Positions 962-35,644 of a DNA stretch of 64,000 bases are shown here, in pieces. Location of the stretch: positions 4,286 to 68,285 of the forward strand of contig DAISYQ010000013.1 in the NCBI GenBank assembly GCA_036825195.1. Direction: 5' to 3'. How positions within the stretch are numbered: the first letter of the stretch is position 1; each line of letters starts with the position of its first letter. The position numbers and the translations under genes are program-made. Origin of the DNA: Syntrophales bacterium. Lineage in GTDB: Bacteria; Desulfobacterota; Syntrophia; Syntrophales; UBA2210. The notes under the pieces were generated by a model that worked only from the letters and a program-made list of their open reading frames with translations, searched no databases and was not told the origin of the DNA.

Positions 962-1438
962 ATGATGAAGATTTTTCTGATCACCGCCCTCGCGATGTTT
1001 ACTGCGATACTACCCTTGCAAGCAGCGGGCAACATGAAAGCATTTCCGCCGGCCGAGGCGGGCATTGTTCGCCATGTCTTGCAGTTGCCGCAGCAGAAGG
1101 AAGAAGCTGGATTCAAAATGGAACTGATCGTGGGCAAGACGGTTGAGGTCGACAAGGGCAACAGGTACTTCTTTGGCGGCAAGATCAAGGCAGAAACGAT
1201 CAAGGTATGGGGCTTTACTCGGTACATTGTCTCCAAACTTGGGCCCATGGCGGGTACGCTGGTGGCAATCGATCCGAACGCGCCAAAAGAGAGACGCTTC
1301 GTCCCGCTGGGGGGCGAACCCTACCTCATCCGCTATAACAGCCGCTTGCCCATCGTGATCTACGCACGAGAAGGTGTTGAGGCCCGCTATCGGATATGGG
1401 CAGCTGATACTGAGGCAACCCCGATTCCTGAAGGCTGA
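962..1438 (+). CDS. eco: ecotin-family serine protease inhibitor (secreted)
   Basis: Signal peptide plus blocks matching E. coli ecotin by eye: FPPAEAGIVRHVLQL, KMELIVGKTVEVD, IRYNSRLPIVIY, ARYRIW. AGGAG RBS upstream. Confidence 0.9.
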   Translation: MMKIFLITALAMFTAILPLQAAGNMKAFPPAEAGIVRHVLQLPQQKEEAGFKMELIVGKTVEVDKGNRYFFGGKIKAETIKVWGFTRYIVSKLGPMAGTLVAIDPNAPKERRFVPLGGEPYLIRYNSRLPIVIYAREGVEARYRIWAADTEATPIPEG

Positions 1439-1450
1439 GATCAAGCGTGG

Positions 1451-1730
1451 GGGAAATCGGGGGATACCATACTTATTCTCTTGACTTAACGTAACTTCAG
1501 CAAGAAGAAATTACAGAGATGCAAAGGCGCGAACATACAGGGCGACCACGTGGCCGCGTAAGTTTTGTCGAAAGTCTGGAGAGTTCGCTTGGTCGCTCTT
1601 TGAAACCAAAGAAGACGGGAAGAAAACCTAAGGATACAAACTAATAGGTAACAGTGTCCCCGGAATTTCCTAAAGGGAACGAAGAGTCCCGCAGATACAT
1701 TGTAAAGTGTAAGGGATGGTGTATTACGGA
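1451..1730 (+). repeat. Repeat family B, copy 1 (transposase-tail / integrase-tail remnant)
   Basis: Aligns by eye with 2808-3020 and 5201-5492 (GGGAAATCGGGGGANACCATACTT...TTGACTTAACGTAACTTCAGCAAGAAGAAATTA...). It ends in ...KSPADTL* when translated. Confidence 0.8.
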
Positions 1731-1807
1731 GTTCTGTATAACACCCCCTCATAAATAATGAATAATTTGATTATCAATATATGATTAGATACTTAAGAAC
1801 TGTTTTT

Positions 1808-1887
1808 TTGTAACAGCATAGGCGGTTTATACAGTTTCATTAACTGTATTTCGGTTTTATAAGAAAACTGTCTATTTAATGTTAGGC
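1808..1887 (+). repeat. possible degenerate attC-like site
   Basis: TTGTAAC ... GTTAGGC outer boxes. Short TAACA/TGTTA and ATAG/CTAT pairings only, so the structure is weak. Confidence 0.3.
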
Positions 1888-1926
1888 TAATATTAGGAAG
1901 TCGAATGGCGGGAGAAATTTAAAAAA

Positions 1927-2685
1927 ATGATAGAGGAACCTGCTTTTAGGTTTTCGCTGATTATCCCGGCTCATAATGAGCAGGACTATCTTCCCGCGTT
2001 GCTTGACACAGTGGATATCGCTCGACGTAATTATAATTGTGGCAGAAATGCAATTGAAGTAATTGTTACTGATAATGACTCTACCGACAAAACTTCAGAG
2101 ATAGCCAGAACTCGTGGGTGTGTGCTTGTTCACGAAGAAAAACGCGTCATAGCGGCTGTACGCAATGCCGGTGCAACTGTCGCCCGGGGAGATATCCTAA
2201 TGTTTGTAGACGCCGACAGCCAAATCCATCCCAATACATTTAACGCAATTGATCATGCGATGTTAAACAATAGAATCATAGCTGGTTCAACCGGTGTCCG
2301 TATGGAGCGTATGTCCTTTGGTATCGCGATGGCATATATGTTCATGGTACCTATGATATGGGTAACAGGCATGGACACGGGAGTTGTTTTTTGTTGGCGG
2401 AATGATTTTGAGGCCATAGGCGGGTACAATGAGCAAAAGCTGTTCGCTGAAGATGTTGATTTCCTTTGGCGATTAAAAAGGTTGGGCAACACCCGTGGAC
2501 AAAGATTGACAAGAGTAACTTCTACCAAGGCAGTAACATCCATGCGAAAATTTGATCAGTATGGAGACTGGCATTATTTTACCCTGATCGCATATGCACT
2601 ATATGCAATGTGTTTCTCATTCAAGCGCGTTGAGAACTTCGCAAAAAAATATTGGTATGATGATCTGAATAGAGATAAAGATTAA
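1927..2685 (+). CDS. glycosyltransferase family 2 protein
   Basis: FSLIIPAHNE, VIVTDNDSTDKT and FVDADS (DxD) motifs. AT-rich relative to the neighbouring genes. Confidence 0.85.
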   Translation: MIEEPAFRFSLIIPAHNEQDYLPALLDTVDIARRNYNCGRNAIEVIVTDNDSTDKTSEIARTRGCVLVHEEKRVIAAVRNAGATVARGDILMFVDADSQIHPNTFNAIDHAMLNNRIIAGSTGVRMERMSFGIAMAYMFMVPMIWVTGMDTGVVFCWRNDFEAIGGYNEQKLFAEDVDFLWRLKRLGNTRGQRLTRVTSTKAVTSMRKFDQYGDWHYFTLIAYALYAMCFSFKRVENFAKKYWYDDLNRDKD

Positions 2686-2708
2686 AAAGATCATGAATAA
2701 GTTCTATT

Positions 2709-2775
2709 GTCCAACCTTTGCATCAAGTCGGATTTGGCTAAAAAACAGCCAAACCGCTTATGCAACCCGTTATAA
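2709..2775 (+). repeat. attC-like integron recombination site (67 nt)
   Basis: GTCCAAC ... GTTATAA. The arms TGCAT(C)AAG(T)CGG(A)TTTGGCT / AGCCAAACCGCTTATGCA pair, with three unpaired bases on the 5' arm as in canonical attC. Confidence 0.75.
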
Positions 2776-3020
2776 AACCTATATCAATCTAGGGATTGAA
2801 GAAAATGTAATCGGGGGACACCATACTTGTTTTCTTGACTTAACGTAACTTCAGCAAGAAGAAATTACAGAGATGCAAAGGCGTGAACATACAGGGCGAC
2901 CACTTGGCAACGTAAGTTTTGTCGAAAGTCTGGAGAGTTCGTTTGTGTTTAATCAGGGTCCAAAGAAATTTAAGAACCCTGCAGATACATTGTAAAGTGT
3001 AAGGGGATGGTGTAGTACGT
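2770..3020 (+). repeat. Repeat A (truncated) + repeat B (internally deleted), copy 2
   Basis: TTATAAAACCTATATCAATC... begins at the G|TT of the attC-like site. The B part joins ...LESSF directly to VFNQGPKKFKNPADTL*. Confidence 0.8.
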
Positions 3021-3091
3021 AGTTGTTTCAGCTATGTTTGGCTTTTATACAGAAACTATATAAACACTGTTATAACCTCAGGAAACTAATC

Positions 3092-3541
3092 ATGATTATC
3101 CGAAAAATCAAAGAAAGTGAACTAAATCAACTTATTGAACTATACTTTCATTATACCCATGAAGATAATTTACCAACTTTAGCGCCTGATAAAATCCGAG
3201 AAATATGGAAGCAGATTGAATCAAATCCTTTGATAAATTACTTTGTCCTGGAAACTGAAAACAAGATAGTAGCATCCTGTATTCTCTCAATTACTCCATC
3301 ATTCATAAGAGGTGGCGATGGTTATGGGTTAATTGAACATGTTGTAACGCATACTGATTATCGACAAAGAGGATTTGGGAAAGCAATTGTTAAATTTTCT
3401 TTGGATTATGCGTGGAATAATGGATGTACGGAGGTTATGCTGTTATCGGGATCTCATCTCAAGAGAGCACATGCTATGTATGAAAAATTAGGGTTTGATA
3501 AATTTCGAAAAACTGGGTTTATTATGTATAAGCCCAGATAA
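3092..3541 (+). CDS. GNAT family N-acetyltransferase
   Basis: YRQRGFGKAIV acetyl-CoA motif. ATG at 3092 is preceded by AGGA. The ORF-track start at 3023 lies inside repeat B. Confidence 0.85.
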   Translation: MIIRKIKESELNQLIELYFHYTHEDNLPTLAPDKIREIWKQIESNPLINYFVLETENKIVASCILSITPSFIRGGDGYGLIEHVVTHTDYRQRGFGKAIVKFSLDYAWNNGCTEVMLLSGSHLKRAHAMYEKLGFDKFRKTGFIMYKPR

Positions 3542-3578
3542 TTGTATATGTGAATTAATTAAAAATGTTATAAAAAAA

Positions 3579-3632
3579 GCCTCCACCCGGGCGCAATCGC
3601 CACTCGATGAGTGGAAGTACAATGTTTACGGC
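3579..3632 (+). repeat. possible degenerate attC-like site
   Basis: It starts GCCTCCAC and ends GTTTACGGC (compare GCCTAAC...GTTCGGC at 889-948). There is a central CCACTC-gat-GAGTGG hairpin, and the outer pairing is poor. Confidence 0.3.
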
Positions 3633-3705
3633 AAATTCATCATTTTACAAAAATCATCGTAGCGCCTGATGCCGGTATTAAGCACGCGATCACATGGACT
3701 GATAC

Positions 3706-4446
3706 ATGCTTCGAAGGAATGGTATGGTATCGAAACCAGATAATCAAAAGGCAGCTCAAACAGCGTCTCCTCGCCATTGGATCGGTGTAGTTGTGGTGTA
3801 TCTTTCCATCCCACTGGTTCTATTGGTATGCGGAGGGGATTTCGGTTGGTGGCAGGCGTGGGTCTATTCTCTGCTGATCGTTGCCGCCGGCATAGGGGGG
3901 CGCATTTTGGCGGAACGGCGGCATCCGGGGTTGATGGCCGAACGACAAAACATTGAGAAGATCCAACAAAGTGCGAAAGCTTGGGACAAAGTGCTTGCTC
4001 CGCTGATGGCGCTGGGTTTAGTGTTCCCATTGGTTATTGTGGCAGGGCTCGATCACCGCCGTGGCTGGTCCCCCGTATTTCCGCTATGGCTCATTGTGCT
4101 CGGCTTCATCTTGATCACGCTAGGATACGCTTTCTCTTCGTGGGCATTGGCAGAGAACCGCTTTTTTTCCAGCGTGGTGCGTATTCAGACGGATCGAGGG
4201 CATGTGGTGTGTGACAGTGGCCCATATCGGATTGTTCGGCATCCGGGCTATGCTGGAAATATTCTGCCACTGCTGGGTATTGTGCTGGCCTTAGACTCGG
4301 TGTGGACACTCATTCCGGCGACCGTGGCGTTGATCATCACGGTGATCAGAACCGCGCTGGAAGACCAGACTCTACAGGAAGAGTTGCCAGGGTATCAGGA
4401 ATATACGCGGCGCGTGCACTATCGGTTGATTCCGGGGATTTACTGA
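3706..4446 (+). CDS. isoprenylcysteine carboxyl methyltransferase (ICMT/PEMT) family membrane protein
   Basis: Multi-TM protein with the C-terminal RIVRHPGYAGNIL motif typical of ICMT-like methyltransferases. Confidence 0.8.
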   Translation: MLRRNGMVSKPDNQKAAQTASPRHWIGVVVVYLSIPLVLLVCGGDFGWWQAWVYSLLIVAAGIGGRILAERRHPGLMAERQNIEKIQQSAKAWDKVLAPLMALGLVFPLVIVAGLDHRRGWSPVFPLWLIVLGFILITLGYAFSSWALAENRFFSSVVRIQTDRGHVVCDSGPYRIVRHPGYAGNILPLLGIVLALDSVWTLIPATVALIITVIRTALEDQTLQEELPGYQEYTRRVHYRLIPGIY

Positions 4447-4523
4447 AGGGGCTCATCTGTGCGATTTGATGGGGCGGGTAGGAAGGGTTCGTTTTCAGAA
4501 TGTGCAAGAGAGCGTGTAAGAGC

Positions 4524-4582
4524 GCCCGACAATTCGCTCAAGCACAAAGCTCAAACTTGGGCTTTGCTTAATCGGCTTCGGC
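4524..4582 (+). repeat. degenerate attC-like site (59 nt)
   Basis: GCCCGAC ... AAGCA(C)AAAGC-loop-GCTTTGCTT ... GCTTCGGC. Same length and end sequence (TTCGGC) as the site at 889-948. Confidence 0.45.
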
Positions 4583-4590
4583 CATCTCAA

Positions 4591-4648
4591 TTATAACCCG
4601 AATTTACTTTAACCTCGGCTAGGCGCGCGTCTTAGCTTTACGTTCTGC
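4591..4648 (+). repeat. possible attC-like site (58 nt)
   Basis: TTATAAC is the exact complement of the GTTATAA boxes at 2769 and 5115, and the site ends in GTTCTGC. Internal pairing is weak. Confidence 0.3.
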
Positions 4649-4663
4649 TCATAAATGGTGAAT

Positions 4664-5083
4664 ATGGAAATTAGACCATTTGATCCAAATGATGAGGAAT
4701 CTGTGATCCGACTGTGGACCGCTTGTGGTCTGGTCGTTCCCTGGAATAATCCTCATCGTGATATTCAGCGCAAGCTTAAAATTCAACCGGATATGTTCCT
4801 TGTCGCATGTTCCGACGGCCAGGTCATTGCCACGGTCATGGCTGGGTACGATGGCCATCGCGGTTGGATCAATTATCTTGCTGTTCATCCACAACACCGG
4901 CACTCTGGGATTGGCAAACTGATGATGGACGAAGCCGAAAGTCGGCTTCGATCTGCTGGCTGCCCAAAGATTAACCTGCAGGTGCGCGGCACAAATGCTT
5001 CGGCGATCCGGTTTTACGAGAGAATTGGTTTCAAGAAAGACGATGTCGTGAGCCTCGGAAAACGTCTGGAACCGGATAATTGA
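4664..5083 (+). CDS. ypeA: GNAT acetyltransferase, YpeA-like
   Basis: MEIRPF..LW..C.L..PWNDP..DI.RK...Q...FLVA..G.V..TVM.GYDGHRG..YLAVHP......GI...L....E..L...GCPKI.L.V collinear with E. coli YpeA by eye. Confidence 0.85.
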   Translation: MEIRPFDPNDEESVIRLWTACGLVVPWNNPHRDIQRKLKIQPDMFLVACSDGQVIATVMAGYDGHRGWINYLAVHPQHRHSGIGKLMMDEAESRLRSAGCPKINLQVRGTNASAIRFYERIGFKKDDVVSLGKRLEPDN

Positions 5084-5121
5084 GCAGAACATGCGTGTGT
5101 AAGAGACACGCGGCGTTATAA
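5084..5121 (+). repeat. short attC-like site
   Basis: GCAGAAC-atGCGTG...CACGC-ggc-GTTATAA. The R'' side forms a perfect 9-nt inverted pair with GTTCTGCTC at 4642-4650, bracketing the ypeA-like gene. It is unusually short for an attC. Confidence 0.4.
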
Positions 5122-5492
5122 AACCTATATCAATCCAGGATTGAAGAAATTAAAGAATGAAATCGAAAATCCAAAACCGGTTATCGCATCCCATAGTTTC
5201 TGGGAAATCGGGGGAAACCATACTTATTTTCTTGACTTAACGTAACTTCAGCAAGAAGAAATTATAGAGATGCAAAGGTACGAACATACAGGACGACCAC
5301 TTGGCAGCGTAGGTTTTGTCGAAAATCTTGAGAGTTCACTCGGTCGCCCTTTGAAACCGAAAAAGGCGGTAAGGAAACCTAATGTGGGTACGATATCAGA
5401 ACGATTCAAGAACTGCTCGGGCATAAAGACATAAAAACCACGATGATCGACACCCATGTGCTTAATCAGGGTCCAAAGGGATTTAAGAGCCT
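5116..5492 (+). repeat. Repeat A + repeat B, copy 3 (most complete)
   Basis: It begins at the G|TT of the preceding attC-like site and aligns with copies at 1451-1730, 2770-3020 and 6427-6512. Confidence 0.85.
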
Positions 5493-5496
5493 TTAA
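5386..5496 (+). pseudogene. tyrosine recombinase (IntI-like) C-terminal remnant
   Basis: Translates to [36 protein letters not shown]. This is box II of tyrosine recombinases with the catalytic Tyr replaced by Asp (GAC 5449-5451). A stop lies immediately upstream. Confidence 0.7.
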
Positions 5497-5599
5497 TAAT
5501 TTTAGTCAATGGACTATCCCTGGTTTAAAACCTGAACATACAAAAGCAATAGATATAGTTAGACGAAAAGTTGTAGGATAGTATCTTGTTTATTATTAC

Positions 5600-5658
5600 T
5601 CACAACATCAGTTTCAACAAGGACGGGCTGCGCCCGCCTGTTAAACTGCGCGTTAGAT
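5600..5658 (+). repeat. attC-like site (59 nt)
   Basis: TCACAAC-atca-GTTT(C)AACA(A)GG(A)CGGGC-tgc-GCCCGCCTGTTAAAC-tgcgc-GTTAGAT. Central stem with unpaired bases on the 5' arm and a perfect GTTRRRY box. Confidence 0.45.
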
Positions 5659-5730
5659 TTCTTCGTACGGCAAAGGATCATCTTTTATATTCATGTTTCA
5701 AAAATATTAAAAACAATCTATTGTGAACCT

Positions 5731-5830
5731 TTATTGTCAAATTATGCTTCAGTATATCATTTTACAGAAAGAGGTTTCGCTTATTGTCAAATTATGCTTC
5801 AGTATATCATTTTACAGAAAGAGGTTTCGC
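5731..5830 (+). repeat. perfect 2 x 50-bp tandem duplication
   Basis: TTATTGTCAAATTATGCTTCAGTATATCATTTTACAGAAAGAGGTTTCGC occurs twice, head to tail. It contains a TTGTCA/TATCAT promoter-like pair and a GAAAGAGG RBS. Confidence 0.95.
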
Positions 5831-5831
5831 T

Positions 5832-6293
5832 ATGTTGAATCTAAAAAAAATTGCTCTTTTCGCCTTTATTATCTTAGGTATAAATATTAGTGCATATTGT
5901 GCAGATTTAGAATCAGCTGCGTATAATGGCGATAAGCAGAAAGTAATCCAAATATTAAAAACAAAGCCAGATATAAATCATCGAGATAGTTTTGGTGGAA
6001 CTGCGTTGCATGGCGCGATGTTCCAAAAAGACTTATCGATAATTGAGATGTTGCTAGATTATGGTTTTGATCCAAATGCTAAAGGTATAAGGAATGGTTA
6101 TACACCTCTGCATGATGCAGTATGGGCAACAAATATAGACGCTGTAAAACTCCTCTTAAGACGAGGAGCAAAACCAGACATAAAAAATAATGATGGATTA
6201 ACGGCTTATAGCTTTGCTAAAAATAATGGGAAAAACGAAATAGCCAAATATATAAAAGAATATTCGGAAAAAAAGAATTTGAGCTATGAATAA
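5832..6293 (+). CDS. secreted ankyrin-repeat protein
   Basis: MLNLKKIALFAFIILG signal peptide, then GGTALHGA...LL..G.DPN and GYTPLHDA...LLL..GA.PD ankyrin repeats. About one-third G+C by eye. Confidence 0.85.
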   Translation: MLNLKKIALFAFIILGINISAYCADLESAAYNGDKQKVIQILKTKPDINHRDSFGGTALHGAMFQKDLSIIEMLLDYGFDPNAKGIRNGYTPLHDAVWATNIDAVKLLLRRGAKPDIKNNDGLTAYSFAKNNGKNEIAKYIKEYSEKKNLSYE

Positions 6294-31375: not shown

Positions 31376-31876
31376 TTACTGGAAGGGGTCTTTCCCGATA
31401 TGGAGCGAATCCCACTTTCTGTCGTCTCCCAGAAATTCCCCCGAATAACTGAAGCAAAAGGCAGCGGCTTCACCGGGAAGCGATACGCTTGCATTGAAGG
31501 GTATCTTTTCGGGGGCGGTTGAATTCACCGAATAGAGAGGGCTGATATGGTGGGTGCTTATCACCCTTCCATCGGTATATAGAAAGCTGACAAGAAGACT
31601 CAGACTTCTGATTTTCGGATAACTATTGGTTATGGATTCTGATATCGATATATTACCTTCCAGACTCAAACGATCGGGCAGCGACGTATAGGTATAATGA
31701 ACCGCTAATTCGTTGGTATTCCATATCCCTGATTCGGTGCCGCCTGAGACGATATGAATCCGGTCGGCCTGCTTTGCCGTTTCCCCCCGGTATAGCTCGT
31801 GGGTGCTGGCACATGCCAGCAGTGAAAACAGTGACAAAGATATGAATATAATGACCCGGGTATTTTTTTGTACCAT
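31376..31876 (-). CDS. hypothetical lipoprotein
   Basis: LFSLLAC lipobox. Confidence 0.55.
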   Translation of the reverse strand: MVQKNTRVIIFISLSLFSLLACASTHELYRGETAKQADRIHIVSGGTESGIWNTNELAVHYTYTSLPDRLSLEGNISISESITNSYPKIRSLSLLVSFLYTDGRVISTHHISPLYSVNSTAPEKIPFNASVSLPGEAAAFCFSYSGEFLGDDRKWDSLHIGKDPFQ

Positions 31877-32040
31877 AATTCACTCCTTTCTCGCTTGTGT
31901 GTTCTGTGGCATCTCCGTCTAAAGTCCCGGGATTCCGATAGGGCCGGGAAGATCAGGGATGCAGCATCCTGAAAGCGAGATCATAATTAACAAGATAAAT
32001 GCTAACAGTGCCAGTTGTTTCATTCGGATTCCTTCTCAAG

Positions 32041-32104
32041 GTATAACAAAAAGCTGAATCGGAGCGACCCTAGAGACTCGATCAGTTCTATTGATTTGTT
32101 AGAA
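32041..32104. repeat. attC-like site adjacent to the DUF4238 gene (orientation ambiguous)
   Basis: GTATAACAAA...CTGA(A)TCG(G)AG-loop-CTCGATCAG...TTTGTTAGAA. Outer 9-bp stem, asymmetric internal loop and an inner stem with two unpaired bases. It lies 8 nt from the gene stop. Confidence 0.6.
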
Positions 32105-32111
32105 TTTTATA

Positions 32112-33131
32112 CTACGTCTCTTTCGCAAACTTAGCTTCCATAAGTATATTTTTTTCGTGCCATTTTCCCCACATTTCTTGTTCTTGCCTGAATAGTTTGT
32201 GATCTACTATCCGAGGTGCGTATTTCTCTATTTCAGGATCTGGTTCGTTTGAAAAGATCATCCTATATGAATTTTCAGCGATTATCTTTCTGATAAATAA
32301 AGTTTTCTCCTTATTGAACCGAGTTCCCTTTATCGGTGGTTTACATCCAATTTCAGTAAACAAAAGATGCTCTGAGTCTAATGGAAAAATAATATTACCT
32401 CTCTTAACACCCCAACCACCTTTTAAATCATACTGATTTTGACTGATAAAATTTAGTCTAACGACGGGATTATCACTCGTGAACCATTTCATGCCATTGT
32501 ATGGACGTATTATAGTCCATTTGTGTTTATTTAGAATATTGATAGTGTTGTTTAGTATGTGTTTCAAGCTAAATAACCAAGACGAACGTCCTGTATATGA
32601 TTCTATATTGACGATCATTGTTGGTTCGCTGCCTTCCTCATAAGTAGTCGTTATTTTTAAAGGAAGATGATTCTTGTGTTTTGTCGGATTAGAATATTCT
32701 TGTCTCTGCTCCAAAAGTCTTTTGGGAAGGTTTTTTTGCAATTTTTTTAAAGTTTGAGAAAAAATTATTTGAGCTCTTTCGAGATGTTCATGAAGCCTTG
32801 CTGGTGTTCTTACGTCATGTAGTGCCACAAATTTTATCAGTTTATTCCAATCATCTGAAGATAAATGTAAATCACTAATTGCTCGGTTTAGTGCACTTTG
32901 AACCGGGGTCTCAAACTCTTTATCAAACCACTGCTCTACCTCATCATCTAGTTCTTGATCTTTTAATTGAGAATATAGGTGTAAATGATAGGCTACAGCT
33001 TTAGGCGGAGATTTCTTCCACATATTAATATTATCATGGGATACTAAGGTACGGTAACACCAAAGATAGTTTTCAGAATCACACCAATTTCTGAGATAAC
33101 TCTGCGAGACAAAATGATTTTTGTTACGCAA
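32112..33131 (-). CDS. DUF4238 domain protein
   Basis: The N-terminal NHFVSQSYLRNW resembles the HYVPQFYLRNF signature of DUF4238. The gene is about one-third G+C by eye, against about 50% in the flanks. Confidence 0.7.
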   Translation of the reverse strand: MRNKNHFVSQSYLRNWCDSENYLWCYRTLVSHDNINMWKKSPPKAVAYHLHLYSQLKDQELDDEVEQWFDKEFETPVQSALNRAISDLHLSSDDWNKLIKFVALHDVRTPARLHEHLERAQIIFSQTLKKLQKNLPKRLLEQRQEYSNPTKHKNHLPLKITTTYEEGSEPTMIVNIESYTGRSSWLFSLKHILNNTINILNKHKWTIIRPYNGMKWFTSDNPVVRLNFISQNQYDLKGGWGVKRGNIIFPLDSEHLLFTEIGCKPPIKGTRFNKEKTLFIRKIIAENSYRMIFSNEPDPEIEKYAPRIVDHKLFRQEQEMWGKWHEKNILMEAKFAKET

Positions 33132-33596
33132 CCTATCTTCCTTTCATAATGCATTTTAATCGAATTCTAACAAGTTATTAAACGGGAAAGTATCCGTATC
33201 TACCAAGTATTCCGATATTGAGTAACAGGGTCTTTATTGACGATCTCCGCTTCCGTCCTATCAGCATATTTAACATCCACGGTTTATGTATTGAAAAAGC
33301 CGGGGGAAATTATGGAAAATAAAGGATACTATGTCAAGGATAATTCAGGGCATAAGCAATAGGAATTATTGGGCGTTGCAAGAATGGAAGAGGAGTATTC
33401 AGGCCTTGAGATTTCATTTTATACCATAAGGTATAACGGGTTACCTGGTCGGAAAACGCAGGAGTCGAGGTGGTTTTGTTTAAATAGGTTGCAATTTTTG
33501 CATATTAGGTATAGAAACGGCCGCAATCGTCTGACACTTGAGCAGACCGATGATTGAATGGTGCTGTTTTACGTGTCATGTATTGTGCGTGGAAGA

Positions 33597-33627
33597 GCTG
33601 TCCAGATCGCTTTGGGCAGCTTTTTTT
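33597..33627 (+). terminator. intrinsic terminator with no annotated upstream gene
   Basis: GCTGTCC-agatcgcttt-GGGCAGC followed by TTTTTTT. Confidence 0.65.
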
Positions 33628-33638
33628 GTGGTTCGGAA

Positions 33639-33670
33639 AGCCGGCATGCGTCGCATCCGGCTGTTTCTTT
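33639..33670 (+). terminator. second terminator-like hairpin
   Basis: AGCCGGCATG-cgtcg-CATCCGGCT followed by GTTTCTTT. Confidence 0.45.
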
Positions 33671-33847
33671 AGAAGAAGAGTGCCGGCAACGGCGTTCGTC
33701 CAATGGGATTTCAACTTCGATGTGCGCGATGATTTCAAAAACCGGAGATGTGAAGCATTTCTGGCAGCTCGCAGTCTTACATAACTAGCCGGCATGCCGT
33801 AGACGATTACCGTTTGCATGAACGTGCCCGGCAGATGAATGGTGATT

Positions 33848-35644
33848 ATGGATTTTCAAGAATTGGGATTAAATGAGGAACTGGTCCGCGCGGTGAAGGC
33901 GTTGGGCTTTGTAAACCCAATGCCGATACAGGAGCAGGCCATCCCCGTACTGCTCGACGGCAGTCGGGATGTTGTGGGATCGGCGCAAACCGGTACCGGG
34001 AAAACGGGGGCTTTTGGTCTGCCGCTGCTTCAGCTTATCGACAGGTCGGTGCCGCACCCGCAGGCGCTTGTCCTGTGCCCTACCCGTGAGCTTTGCATTC
34101 AGATAACGAATGACATAAAGCAGTTTTCACTCTGCATGGAAGGAGTCCGCACGGCTGCCGTATACGGCGGTGCCAGCATCGAAGTCCAGATAAGGCAGAT
34201 AAAACGCGGTGCCCAGATAATTGTGGCGACACCGGGGCGGCTGAATGATCTGCTTCGGCGAAAAGCGGTGAAGATGGAACATATCTCTGTGGCGGTTTTG
34301 GATGAAGCCGATGAAATGCTGAATATGGGATTTAAGGAAGATATCGATTTAATCCTGGCAACACTGCCGCCGCATCGGCGTATATGGCTGTTTTCTGCGA
34401 CCATGCCTTCGGGCGTTGCGGCGATTGCAACGAAGTATCTTACTGATCCGGTGAAGATAACCGTGAACAGCAAACAAAAAAGCCCGGAGAAGATCGAGCA
34501 TACCTGCTACACGATACAGGAAAAAGACCGGTATGAGGCCCTGAAACGGATTCTGGATTTTTCTCCCGGAATTTTCGGTCTGGTATTCTGCCGGACCCGA
34601 AAGGAAACACAGGATGTGGCCGCCAGGCTGATACAGGACGGCTATGACTCGGGTGCCCTTCATGGAGAATTATCTCAGGCGCAACGGGACAGCGTGATGC
34701 AGAGATTCCGACAGGCATCGATCCGTATTCTTGTGGCAACTGATGTTGCCGCACGAGGGCTTGACGTCAATGATATCACCCACGTGATTCATTACAATCT
34801 GCCGAATGAGCCGGAGATGTATATTCACCGCAGCGGGAGGACAGCGCGCGCCGGAAAGCATGGATCGTCGATTGCACTGATCAATGTGAAAGAAAAATAC
34901 CGACTCCAGGCCATTGAGAAGCGATTGAAAATCCAGTTTGATTTCGAGAAAGTCCCTGATGGACCGGGAATTTGCAAAAAACAGCTCCTCAGTCAAATTG
35001 AAAAAATTGTTGATACAAAGGTCAACGATGCCGATATCGCCGAATACCTGCCTGTCGCATACGAAGCCCTGCGCGGAATAGATAAAAATGAACTGATAAA
35101 ACGATTGGTTTCTTCCGAGTTTACTCATTTTATTGACTATTACCGCCATTCCAGCGATATCAATGTGAAACCCCTGAAAAAGGCCGTCACTGGTACCGGA
35201 ACGACGAACCCGAAGACCCGCGTGAAAGACAGCCGCACAAACAGCGTGAAGGATGGCATAAAAGATAGCCGGAAGGACACTCGGAAAGATAGAAAAGCCC
35301 AGCGGTTTTTTATCAACATCGGGCGGCTGGATAAAATGAATGAAGGCTCTATCGTAAAGCTGATATGCGACCACTCTGACATCCGGGCAAGCATGATCGG
35401 ACAGGTCAATCTGAAACGTTCTTACTCCTTTTTCGAGGTGGAGAACAGGGTGGCTGGAATGATGCTCCAGTCAATAAGGAACGCCAAGTTCTATGGCAGA
35501 GAGGTCATGATCCGGGAAGTTTTCGATAAAAAAATTCCGCCATCAATACGAGCGGAAGCCATAAGAAACCTAATAAACGGCGTCAGCATTACGCTGCCGC
35601 CATGTGACAACAGGCTTTTCCACGGCACTTTTATGGATAGATGA
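33848..35644 (+). CDS. deaD: DEAD-box ATP-dependent RNA helicase (DeaD/CsdA-like, with DbpA-type C-terminal domain)
   Basis: Q motif F.ELGL, AQTGTGKT, PTRELC, DEAD (VLDEADEM), SAT and HRSGRTARAG. The start could also be at 33839. Confidence 0.9.
   Translation: MDFQELGLNEELVRAVKALGFVNPMPIQEQAIPVLLDGSRDVVGSAQTGTGKTGAFGLPLLQLIDRSVPHPQALVLCPTRELCIQITNDIKQFSLCMEGVRTAAVYGGASIEVQIRQIKRGAQIIVATPGRLNDLLRRKAVKMEHISVAVLDEADEMLNMGFKEDIDLILATLPPHRRIWLFSATMPSGVAAIATKYLTDPVKITVNSKQKSPEKIEHTCYTIQEKDRYEALKRILDFSPGIFGLVFCRTRKETQDVAARLIQDGYDSGALHGELSQAQRDSVMQRFRQASIRILVATDVAARGLDVNDITHVIHYNLPNEPEMYIHRSGRTARAGKHGSSIALINVKEKYRLQAIEKRLKIQFDFEKVPDGPGICKKQLLSQIEKIVDTKVNDADIAEYLPVAYEALRGIDKNELIKRLVSSEFTHFIDYYRHSSDINVKPLKKAVTGTGTTNPKTRVKDSRTNSVKDGIKDSRKDTRKDRKAQRFFINIGRLDKMNEGSIVKLICDHSDIRASMIGQVNLKRSYSFFEVENRVAGMMLQSIRNAKFYGREVMIREVFDKKIPPSIRAEAIRNLINGVSITLPPCDNRLFHGTFMDR

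What the first reader, a model, noticed from the sequence alone, without database searches (positions are those of the whole stretch)
32041..33171. AT-rich DUF4238 gene flanked like a solo integron cassette: candidate single-gene defence cassette
The 339-aa DUF4238-like gene is about one-third G+C by eye, embedded in flanks of about 50%. Eight nt beyond its stop lies a 64-nt attC-like structure with four parts:
- an outer stem (G)TATAACAAA / TTTGTTAGA;
- an asymmetric internal loop;
- an inner stem CTGA(A)TCG(G)AG / CTCGATCAG with two unpaired bases;
- an apical loop.

The outer box GTTAGAA (32098-32104) has an exact 7/7 inverse partner, TTCTAAC (33165-33171), 34 nt upstream of the gene start. 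So the gene plus one attC is delimited just as a cassette inserted outside an array would be.

As far as I recall, a DUF4238 protein is listed as a single-gene anti-phage system (Rst_DUF4238 in DefenseFinder). Integron cassettes have also recently been reported to carry compact defence genes. The orientation of the attC relative to the gene is ambiguous: the unpaired bases favour the + strand as top strand, while gene proximity favours the minus strand.
Basis: partly seen in the sequence, partly recalled or inferred. Interest (0 to 1): 0.8.

Follow-up and report, generated by a model that had tools for sequence, protein, structure and literature searches.

The report
Solo integron cassette carrying DUF4238 gene
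A 1.1-kb AT-rich mobile gene cassette carrying a probable anti-phage gene sits alone in a chromosomal "slot" of a Syntrophales bacterium, and related species hold different cassettes in that same slot, so this is a clear natural example of a known process rather than a new kind of system.

Summary
Window 32047-33170 (minus strand, 1,124 bp, GC 0.347 against 0.487 for the window) behaves as an integron-type gene cassette.

- **Contents:** leader with ribosome-binding site, an intact 339-aa DUF4238 gene, then a short hairpin element.
- **Boundaries:** three related Syntrophales contigs keep the same flanking genes. Their homology to the window stops at the predicted crossover points, G|TTAGAA (33171|33170) and G|TTATAC (32047|32046).
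- **Same slot, other cassettes:** the relatives carry an AbiV abortive-infection gene, a nitroreductase-like gene, or a GNAT gene that ends a cassette array.
- **Same cassette elsewhere:** copies with 77-88% protein identity sit in unrelated, defence-rich contexts. One is a decayed integron; several lie beside clear attC sites. Homology always starts at GTTAGAA.

The weak point is the attC itself. It folds no better than shuffled sequence, scores marginally with a home-made attC model, and has its single-base bulges on the non-canonical arm, so it looks degenerate.

No integrase lies nearby; an integron-integrase remnant lies 26.6 kb away. A defence role is inferred from family membership, neighbours and the AbiV slot-mate, and was not tested.

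This is a new member of known kinds (a SALIN-type solo cassette; a defence cassette). The recurrent slot without an integrase is the interesting twist.

The parts
33309..33337 (-). Resident sigma-70-like promoter TTGACA-17-CATAAT. It points into the cassette and lies in the conserved chromosomal flank.
   Evidence: 11 of 12 consensus matches. Both hexamers and the spacing are conserved in relative L102 (alignment A5). Function is inferred from the pattern only.
33171..33180 (-). Left chromosomal junction ...TAATAACTTG|. The G at 33171 is the crossover base supplied by the chromosome.
   Evidence: Homology to L102 runs from 35610 down to 33168 (A5). L106 has the same flank, TTAATAAATTG|TTCGAGC.
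32047..33170 (-). The gene cassette, 1,124 bp, from the first T of TTAGAA to the G of the R' core.
   Evidence: It lies between the two homology breaks with L102 and L103. DNA homology to L091, L092 and L093 covers 33171/33174 to 32089/32092. GC is 0.347, the window minimum.
33132..33170 (-). Cassette leader. It holds TTAGAATTCGAT..., a 4-codon mini-ORF ATGAAAGGAAGATAG (33147-33133) and the Shine-Dalgarno GGAAG for the TTG start.
   Evidence: Conserved in most of the cassette copies compared.
32112..33131 (-). DUF4238 gene, 339 aa, intact.
   Evidence: Pfam PF14022 at E=1.5e-30. dN/dS is 0.18-0.30 against four homologues. The AF2 model has pLDDT 88.
32098..32104 (-). R'' inverse core TTCTAAC, the exact complement of the cassette's own GTTAGAA.
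   Evidence: Sequence. Conserved as TTCTAAC or TTATAAC after the stop codon in most homologous cassettes.
32041..32104 (-). Degenerate attC-like element. Order on the gene strand: R'' TTCTAAC, AAA, asymmetric loop, a 10-bp stem with two bulges, 10-nt loop, TTTTT, R' GTTATAC. Only G32047 of R' belongs to the cassette.
   Evidence: Folds: -5 to -6 kcal/mol in situ, -11 when re-closed on its own TTAGAA. CM scores are 13.8 and 16.9 bits, the only hits in the window. Partly homologous to the 3' elements of L091 and L094.
32041..32046 (-). Right chromosomal junction |TTATAC, the start of the conserved flank TTATACCTTGAGAAGGAAT.
   Evidence: Homology to L102 starts at 32046 and to L103 at 32047 (A6).
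31919..32023 (-). Conserved 34-aa lipoprotein ORF (MKQLALLAFILLIMISLSGCC...). Its ribosome-binding site lies 10 nt after the cassette end.
   Evidence: Conserved in L102, L103 and L106.
31376..31876 (-). 166-aa lineage-specific protein gene, used as the marker for synteny.
   Evidence: Orthologues of 62-80% identity exist only in related Syntrophales or Deltaproteobacteria MAGs.
33839..35644 (+). DEAD-box helicase gene. It is divergent and marks the other side of the slot; no integrase is here.
   Evidence: Pfam domains. Syntenic in L102.
5383..5500 (+). C-terminal remnant of an integron integrase, 26.6 kb from the cassette (context only).
   Evidence: tblastn with IntI1 gives 64% identity over aa 290-325, E=2e-9. 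NCBIfam integron integrase TIGR02249 scores 56 bits against 30 for XerC.

Best explanation
Window 32047-33170 is an integron-type gene cassette: a leader with ribosome-binding site, a DUF4238 gene, and a now-degenerate attC. It sits alone in a conserved chromosomal slot of a Syntrophales bacterium. The slot lies between a resident promoter in the helicase-side intergenic region and a small-lipoprotein operon.

**Mechanism**
- Inferred: an integron integrase acting in trans recombined the folded attC of a circular cassette with the chromosomal site ...TAATAACTTG|TTATACC..., which fits the published attG/GWT type or a simple attI-like site. That leaves G|TTAGAA at the left end and ...TTTTTG|TTATAC at the right end.
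- Shown: the junctions are exactly there. The same slot holds AbiV, nitroreductase-like and GNAT cassettes in relatives. The same DUF4238 cassette occurs in integron or attC contexts elsewhere.
- Inferred: the cassette is transcribed from the resident TTGACA-17-CATAAT promoter about 140 nt upstream. Transcription reads through into the lipoprotein genes.

**The protein**
- It is under purifying selection.
- It most likely acts as a single-gene, abortive-infection-type anti-phage effector, like the DUF4238 protein of P2-like prophage hotspots.
- Its biochemistry is unknown. The fold has no solved relative.

My confidence is about 0.85 for the cassette and its site-specific insertion, and about 0.55-0.6 for the defence role.
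For: **Junctions**
- Window 35610-33168 matches L102 1528-3978 at 88% identity.
- Window 32046-30566 matches L102 4761-6250 at 82%.
- L103 homology starts at 32047 (A5 and A6).

**Different cassettes in the same slot**
- L102 carries an AbiV gene (TIGR04498, 48 bits). The insert starts GTTATGG and has the inverse CCATAAC after the stop codon.
- L106 carries a nitroreductase-like gene starting G|TTCGAGC.
- L103 carries a GNAT cassette from G|TTAGGC to GCCTAAC, with a canonical attC (dG -19 to -21) at the end of a row of same-strand ORFs. The attC before it is interrupted by an IS110 element.

**Same cassette elsewhere**
- L091, L092, L094, L096 and L097 carry copies at 77-88% protein identity. 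Homology begins at GTTAGAA.
- L092 has seven model-detected attCs on one strand and an intI N-terminal remnant.
- L096 and L091 have attC-like sites directly upstream.

**Foreign composition**
- GC is 0.347, the minimum of the window. The cassette stays at 0.35-0.37 in hosts of 0.36-0.47.

**Integrase history**
- An integron-integrase remnant lies at 5383-5500.

**Defence role**
- The protein belongs to the Pfam DUF4238 family.
- A single DUF4238 protein protects against T7 (PMC9122126).
- The only structural match is a protein of the P2-like phage Smp131, E=2e-8.
- Homologues sit beside IetA-like, ZorD/DpdE-like, MTase, HamB, Mrr and CHAT-TPR genes.
- The slot-mate in L102 is AbiV.
- dN/dS is 0.18-0.30.

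**Published framework**
- SALIN, attG (GWT) and expression from resident promoters: 10.1101/2022.09.11.507474.
- Defence cassettes in integrons: 10.1101/2024.07.02.601719.
Against: - The attC is weak. Its folding energy is not above shuffles.
- The home-made CM gives only 13.8-16.9 bits, with E of 0.27-1.5 over 142 kb. The wrong strand of real attCs gives 10-12.5 bits.
- The two bulged bases are on the gene-distal arm, opposite to canonical attCs.
- The R''-to-L'' spacer is about 12 nt instead of 5-6.
- No empty site was found.
- No intact integrase was found in the window or beside any copy of the slot.
- The window and L091 both end in TTATAC after the hairpin. That is unexpected if those bases come from independent targets.
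- PADLOC's DUF4238 model matches at only 24 bits, and there is no tblastn hit in GenBank phages.
- The promoter is a pattern match only.
- No phage assay was done.
Confidence: 0.75

Rival explanations
1. The slot is the shrunken tail of an old sedentary chromosomal integron or CALIN inherited vertically in this Syntrophales lineage. Cassettes were lost or swapped and the integrase was lost or moved. It is not a fresh single attC x attG insertion (a true SALIN). The DUF4238 cassette is then the last survivor, or the latest arrival by attC x attC exchange.
For: - L103 has a multi-ORF, same-strand array with canonical attC and GTTAGGC/GTTAGGA cores. It ends at the identical right junction.
- Four different cassettes share one slot.
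- An intI remnant exists in the window.
- The attCs of the two single-cassette states (window, L102) look decayed.
Against: - In the window, L102 and L106 the left junction abuts conserved core sequence (promoter and helicase). There is no intI, attI repeats or pseudogene there.
- The left end of the L103 array is not on the contig, so adjacency to the helicase is unknown.
- The two scenarios are not mutually exclusive.
Confidence: 0.4
2. The 64-nt element is simply the intrinsic terminator of a horizontally acquired gene, and the GTTAGAA/TTCTAAC boxes are coincidental. The gene arrived by another route, such as homologous recombination of flanks or a transposon.
For: - On the gene strand the inner stem is followed by CTTTTTGTT, and the scan lists a terminator-like site at 32070-32056.
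- The hairpin energy is not above shuffles.
- Transposases are near some homologues.
Against: - The boundaries coincide with the boxes to within 0-3 nt in five independent comparisons.
- Each slot-mate cassette has its own matching pair of inverse cores (GTTATGG/CCATAAC, GTTAGGC/GCCTAAC).
- Homologues have canonical attCs.
- There are no IS ends or target duplications at the junctions.
- A terminator role is compatible with, and not an alternative to, an attC origin.
Confidence: 0.04
3. The unit is moved by a recombinase other than an integron integrase, for example a Xer-type or other tyrosine recombinase acting on short inverted cores, like dif modules.
For: - No intact IntI lies near any copy of the slot.
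- The rebuilt target ATAAC-TT-GTTAT is a short inverted repeat.
- The window's attC fails canonical criteria.
Against: - The cores follow RYYYAAC/GTTRRRY with the crossover at G|TT.
- Slot-mates and homologues carry typical attC hairpins with bulges on the R''/L'' arm.
- intI remnants occur in L092 and in the window.
- No 28-bp XerC/D-like site with a 6-8 nt spacer is present at the junctions.
Confidence: 0.06
4. The DUF4238 protein here is not an anti-phage effector. It serves another accessory role or is a selfish, addictive gene, and the defence link is only family-level guilt by association.
For: - The PADLOC DUF4238 model matches at only 24 bits, E=4.5e-6.
- There is no NCBIfam hit and no solved structural relative.
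- Two of the four slot cassettes (nitroreductase-like, GNAT) are not defence genes.
Against: - The match covers the full length of Pfam DUF4238.
- The fold matches a protein of a P2-like phage.
- Defence-rich neighbourhoods occur in four independent contexts.
- Homologues occur in viral contigs.
- An experimental precedent exists (PMC9122126).
Confidence: 0.35

Closest known systems
[quoted passage not shown]
   Same: - One ORF with one attC-like site.
- No integrase nearby.
- Crossover at a G|TT (GWT) chromosomal site.
- Lies downstream of a resident promoter.
- The left hybrid site could allow excision.
   Different: - The same site holds different cassettes in related species, and an array in one, so it behaves like a reusable slot (proto-attI).
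- The attC here is degenerate and might not pass IntegronFinder.
- No empty site has been seen.
Sedentary chromosomal integron or CALIN cassette arrays
   Same: - Cassette cores RYYYAAC/GTTRRRY.
- Cassette content varies at an orthologous locus.
- Cassette functions include GNAT, toxin-antitoxin and defence genes.
- An IS110 element sits in an attC (L103).
   Different: - No adjacent intI, attI or Pc platform; a DEAD-box helicase gene sits where intI would be.
- There is only one cassette in this genome.
Integron cassettes that encode phage defence (Kieffer et al., bioRxiv 10.1101/2024.07.02.601719)
   Same: - A compact single-gene candidate defence carried as a cassette.
- A slot-mate is AbiV.
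   Different: - The host is an uncultured anaerobic Syntrophales bacterium.
- The cassette lies outside any integron.
- Activity is untested.
Rst_DUF4238, the DUF4238 single-gene system of P2-like prophage hotspots (Rousset et al. 2022, PMC9122126)
   Same: - Same Pfam family over its full length.
- Single-gene architecture.
- The predicted fold matches a protein of a P2-like phage (Smp131).
   Different: - Only a 24-bit match to PADLOC's model.
- 27-36% identity to the viral homologues found.
- Carried on a cassette rather than in a prophage hotspot.

Membership tests
Integron gene cassette | The unit is bounded by the core site G|TTRRRY at the 5' end, with the inverse core RYYYAAC just after the ORF. 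| tested here: met
   GTTAGAA, TTCTAAC and the in-situ R' GTTATAC each match the consensus at 6 of 7 positions. R'' is the exact complement of the cassette's own start.
Integron gene cassette | The unit is discrete and mobile: the same unit in different contexts, and different units at the same site, with junctions at the crossover point. | tested here: met
   (same cassette in L091, L092, L094, L096, L097). (AbiV, nitroreductase-like and GNAT cassettes at the same junctions).
Integron gene cassette | The attC is recognised by an attC covariance model. | tested here: inconclusive
   The home-made model R1 uses 12 attCs, of which 6 are close variants of the aadA-type attC, and its E-values are rough. 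It scores 13.8 bits (+) and 16.9 bits (-, with a different R'). These are the only hits in the window. Unseen real attCs score 17-32 bits and the wrong strands of real attCs score 10-12.5 bits. IntegronFinder's own model was not available.
Integron gene cassette | The attC folds as a stable imperfect hairpin with extrahelical bases on the R''/L'' arm and spacers of 5-6 nt. | tested here: not met
   dG is -5 to -6 kcal/mol with z of -0.3 to -0.7. The two single-base bulges are on the gene-distal arm, and the 5' spacer is about 12 nt. Canonical comparators fold at -11 to -21 with bulges on the 5' arm.
Integron gene cassette | Recombination is carried out by IntI. | not testable with these tools
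   Only intI remnants were seen: window 5383-5500 and L092.
SALIN / attG insertion | A single attC with no integrase or other attC nearby. | tested here: met
   There are no other CM hits in the 64 kb. The only tyrosine-recombinase signal is a 39-aa remnant 26.6 kb away.
SALIN / attG insertion | The target is a GWT site and the cassette can be expressed from a resident promoter. | tested here: met
   The rebuilt target is ...AACTTG|TTATACC (GTT). A conserved TTGACA-17-CATAAT promoter lies about 140 nt upstream and points in. Promoter activity was not tested.
SALIN / attG insertion | An empty site exists in relatives. | tested here: not met
   All three syntenic relatives carry another cassette, not an empty site. 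Five metagenome contigs of the same organism that cover the cassette are 100% identical.
Complete integron | An intI gene adjacent and divergent, with attI and Pc. | tested here: not met
   The divergent neighbour is a DEAD-box helicase gene. tblastn with IntI1 finds nothing in 33171-33838.
DUF4238 anti-phage system (Rst_DUF4238 / PADLOC DUF4238-Pers) | A single protein with the PF14022 domain. | tested here: met
   E=1.5e-30, covering profile positions 1-279 of 281.
DUF4238 anti-phage system (Rst_DUF4238 / PADLOC DUF4238-Pers) | A match to the defence-clade HMM. | tested here: inconclusive
   PADLOC PDLC03000 matches at E=4.5e-6 and 24.3 bits, though over its full length. DefenseFinder was not available.
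DUF4238 anti-phage system (Rst_DUF4238 / PADLOC DUF4238-Pers) | Protection against phage. | not testable with these tools
   The precedent applies only to an E. coli P2-hotspot protein (PMC9122126).

The most novel reading that the evidence does not exclude
The conserved sequence ...TAATAA(C/A)TTG|TTAT(A/G)C..., together with its upstream promoter, is a natural integrase-less cassette slot. In effect it is an orphan proto-attI with a Pc. It has been reused over speciation time in Syntrophales to swap single cassettes (DUF4238, AbiV, nitroreductase-like, GNAT) through an integrase acting in trans. It would be a living example of the proposed attG-hotspot-to-attI transition.
Probability: 0.35. 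Interest if true: 0.65.

Novelty: new member of a known kind. Interest (0 to 1): 0.45.

Why it matters
- It gives a clean natural example, with base-pair junctions, of an integron cassette living outside an integron. The host is an uncultured anaerobe and the cassette sits just behind a host promoter.
- Four related genomes hold four different cassettes at the same two junctions. Two of these are abortive-infection or defence-type genes. This suggests that a plain chromosomal site can act as a reusable cassette slot without its own integrase, which bears on how attI sites arise and how defence genes circulate.
- It adds a distinct, cassette-borne DUF4238 clade as a compact candidate for phage-defence screening. 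This clade has about 400 detectable relatives and is under purifying selection.

Tried and rejected
**Searches that gave little or nothing**
- The metagenome-contig scan with the protein returned only 3 short loci.
- Exact-protein look-ups for the window's own genes found only 100%-identical contigs, so there is no strain lacking the cassette.
- tblastn against GenBank phages found no hit.
- Foldseek against the PDB and a profile search of PDB sequences found nothing significant.
- NCBIfam has no family for the protein.
- L107, the most distant lipoprotein relative, has no recognisable slot.

**Methods abandoned or limited**
- A simple AAC...GTT plus MFE heuristic for attC was far too permissive, with dozens of hits in coding DNA.
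- The home-made CM missed the other probable attCs in L103 and the AbiV element of L102. Its sensitivity is limited and a low score is not a rejection.

**Readings rejected**
- The + strand as top strand: the chromosomal homology break is at 32046/47, not at 32098/99.
- A transposon or IS origin: there are no element ends or target duplications at the junctions.
- A Xer/dif module: there is no 28-bp site.
Full report
**1. The observation**

The minus-strand ORF 32112..33131 encodes 339 aa. It starts at a TTG preceded by GGAAG. It matches Pfam DUF4238 at E=1.5e-30 over almost the whole profile.

GC is 0.348 for the gene and 0.347 for 32047-33170. That is the lowest 1,124-nt stretch of the whole 64 kb, where the mean is 0.486 and sd 0.044. 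The left flank is 0.489 and the helicase gene 0.501.

GTTAGAA (32098-32104) and TTCTAAC (33165-33171) are exact inverse 7-mers.

Taken alone these features are weak.
- The hairpin folds at -5.8 and -5.1 kcal/mol as DNA, with z of -0.7 and -0.3 against shuffles. As RNA it is no better than shuffles.
- From base composition, the chance of the partner 7-mer falling within 100 nt of the start is about 0.012.

**2. The same cassette in other genomes**

About 400 homologues were detected. The closest ones lie in unrelated contexts.

| Locus | Protein identity | Neighbouring genes |
|---|---|---|
| L091 | 87% | IS elements, IetA-like ATPase, WYL regulator, type II MTase, NOV_C protein, ZorD/DpdE-like SNF2 helicase |
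| L092 | 80% | BrnT/BrnA, CHAT-NACHT-TPR protein, Mrr |
| L098 | 73% | HamB-like helicase |
| L094 | 78% | DNA methyltransferase (my reading of the translated sequence) |

DNA homology between the window and L091, L092 and L093 covers only window 33171/33174 to 32089/32092.

In L091, L092, L094, L096 and L097, homology starts exactly at GTTAGAA, after unrelated sequence. After the stop codon most copies have TTCTAAC or TTATAAC.

- In L092 the 3' element looks like a textbook attC: TTCTAAC...TCAAGCGTTAGGC, with bulges on the gene-proximal arm.
- In L099 it is TTCTAACAAAGAAAAA...TTTTTCTTTGTTGAGG.
- L096 and L094 have GC-rich attC-like palindromes directly upstream of G|TTAGAA.

**3. Relatives of the host: the slot**

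The flanking 166-aa protein names the host as a Syntrophales MAG. It has orthologues only in related MAGs.

- **L102** (GCA_016929755.1, orthologue 80% identical) keeps the order helicase - X - 166-aa gene - Asp racemase - PhzF. Here X is an AbiV abortive-infection gene (TIGR04498, 48 bits).
  - Window 35610-33168 aligns to L102 1528-3978 (88% identity).
  - Window 32046-30566 aligns to L102 4761-6250 (82% identity).
- **L103** aligns from window 32047 (alignments A5 and A6).

Chromosomal homology therefore breaks exactly at the predicted crossover points, G|TTAGAA (33171|33170) and G|TTATAC (32047|32046).

Each insert in the slot has its own matching pair of cores.

| Locus | Cassette gene | Start core | Inverse core after the ORF |
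|---|---|---|---|
| Window | DUF4238 | GTTAGAA | TTCTAAC |
| L102 | AbiV | GTTATGG | CCATAAC |
| L103 | GNAT | GTTAGGC | GCCTAAC |
| L106 | nitroreductase-like | G\|TTCGAGC | not seen (N gap in the scaffold) |

- The L103 GNAT cassette has a canonical attC (dG -19 to -21). It ends a row of same-strand small ORFs. The attC before the GNAT cassette is interrupted by an IS110 element.
- L106 (orthologue 75% identical) has the same left flank, TTAATAAATTG.

So four genomes hold four cassettes at one pair of junctions.

The hairpin is inside the insert, so the gene strand is the top strand and the crossover is in R'.

**4. The attC test**

IntegronFinder's model was not available, so I built a covariance model myself.

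- I confirmed the aadA1 attC that I recalled from memory. It is 100% identical in 1,962 plasmids.

| Sequence class | Score (bits) |
|---|---|
| Training attCs | 33-67 |
| Unseen attCs in L092 (with the training sites, seven sites on one strand) | 17-32 |
| L096, upstream of the cassette | 19.4 |
| L091, upstream of the cassette | 17.4 |
| Wrong strand of real attCs | 10-12.5 |
| Window 32041-32104, + strand | 13.8 |
| Window 31985-32104, - strand (uses another R') | 16.9 |

- The two window hits are the only ones in the whole 64 kb. Their E-values are 0.27 and 1.5 over 142 kb.
- The AbiV element of L102 is not detected at all.
- The two single-base bulges of the window hairpin lie on the gene-distal arm. 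The spacer on the R'' side is about 12 nt instead of 5-6.
- Re-closing the element on its own TTAGAA improves the fold to about -11 kcal/mol.

I read the element as a degenerate attC that keeps its R boxes. It is partly homologous to the 3' elements of L091 and L094. It may also act as a weak terminator, because the stem is followed by CTTTTTGTT.

**5. Integrase and expression**

No integrase lies next to the slot. The divergent neighbour is a DEAD-box helicase gene.

The window does hold a C-terminal integron-integrase remnant at 5383-5500.
- It is 64% identical to IntI1 residues 290-325.
- TIGR02249 (integron integrase) scores 56 bits, against 30 for XerC.

L092 holds an intI N-terminal remnant next to its array.

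A near-consensus promoter, TTGACA-17-CATAAT, lies at 33337-33309 on the minus strand. It is in the conserved flank about 140 nt upstream of the cassette, and it is conserved in L102.

A conserved 34-aa lipoprotein ORF (31919-32023) starts 23 nt after the cassette. The cassettes therefore sit in the leader of a host operon. This is the arrangement under which genome-inserted cassettes are expressed (10.1101/2022.09.11.507474).

**6. The protein**

- dN/dS against four homologues is 0.18-0.30.
- An alignment of 50 homologues shows 31 invariant residues, including H6, Y12, D63, E66, E74, D106, R108, D220, H255 and R307.
- The AF2 model is confident (pLDDT 88, pTM 0.86). It has no PDB match by fold or by profile.
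- Its one significant match is an uncharacterised protein of Stenotrophomonas phage Smp131, which I recall is P2-like (E=2e-8, TM 0.54/0.61).
- Eight IMG/VR contigs carry homologues of 27-36% identity.
- A single DUF4238 protein from a P2 hotspot protects E. coli against T7 (PMC9122126).
- PADLOC's DUF4238 model matches over its full length but weakly (24 bits).

A defence role is therefore likely but inferred, and the biochemistry is unknown.

**7. Comparison and verdict**

The element meets the structural and comparative criteria of an integron gene cassette and of a SALIN-type solo insertion. It fails the criteria for a canonical attC hairpin and for a complete integron.

Solo cassettes and attG insertion, and defence cassettes in integrons, are already published (10.1101/2022.09.11.507474; 10.1101/2024.07.02.601719). 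This is therefore a new member of known kinds.

The part that goes beyond a routine case is the reusable slot without an integrase, shared by related species. I cannot tell whether it arose from repeated attG-type insertion or is the stub of an old chromosomal integron.

Noticed in passing
window 5383-5500 (+), with 5270-5380: A C-terminal remnant of an integron integrase ([37 protein letters not shown]). What looks like the C-terminus of a Y1/IS200-type transposase lies just before it. A short AAC...GTT hairpin lies at 5612-5646, just downstream.
   Followed up: partly
window 962-6293 (+): A row of small same-strand genes with low-GC patches (about 0.35 at 2.4-3.6 kb and 5.1-6.5 kb): ecotin, GT2 glycosyltransferase, GNAT, PEMT/ICMT methyltransferase, GNAT and an ankyrin-repeat protein. 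The attC model gives only weak hits, for example 889-948 at 13.4 bits. This may be a decayed cassette array.
   Followed up: partly
window 5732-5831: A perfect tandem duplication of a 50-nt unit (ttattgtcaaattatgcttcagtatatcattttacagaaagaggtttcgc), directly upstream of the ATG at 5833 within the ankyrin-repeat ORF.
   Followed up: no
window 31919-32023 (-): A conserved 34-aa lipoprotein ORF (MKQLALLAFILLIMISLSGCCIPDLPGPIGIPGL) that gene callers missed. It is present in L102, L103 and L106, right after the cassette slot.
   Followed up: partly
window 33133-33147 (-): A four-codon mini-ORF, ATGAAAGGAAGATAG, that contains the Shine-Dalgarno sequence and ends 1 nt before the TTG start. It is conserved in nearly all copies of the cassette and may provide translational coupling.
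   Followed up: no
L103 1890-3070: An IS110-family element is inserted inside an attC, immediately before the GNAT cassette. As far as I recall, some IS110/IS1111-family elements target attC sites.
   Followed up: no
L092 3690-18260: A decayed integron with an intI N-terminal remnant and seven model-detected attCs on one strand. A 1,320-aa CHAT-NACHT-TPR gene lies between the intI remnant and an attC hit at 8248-8319, which would be an unusually large cassette.
   Followed up: partly
window 31033, 31885 and 34276: Contigs from different metagenome assemblies of this organism start or end at the same positions (L001/L010 at 31033, L009/L002 at 31885-31886, L001/L002 at 34276). This hints at strain-level variation around the slot.
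   Followed up: no
window 32041-32046 and L091 11077-11082: The window and L091 both read TTATAC just after the 3' hairpin, although their downstream contexts differ. That is unexpected if these six bases come from independent targets.
   Followed up: no
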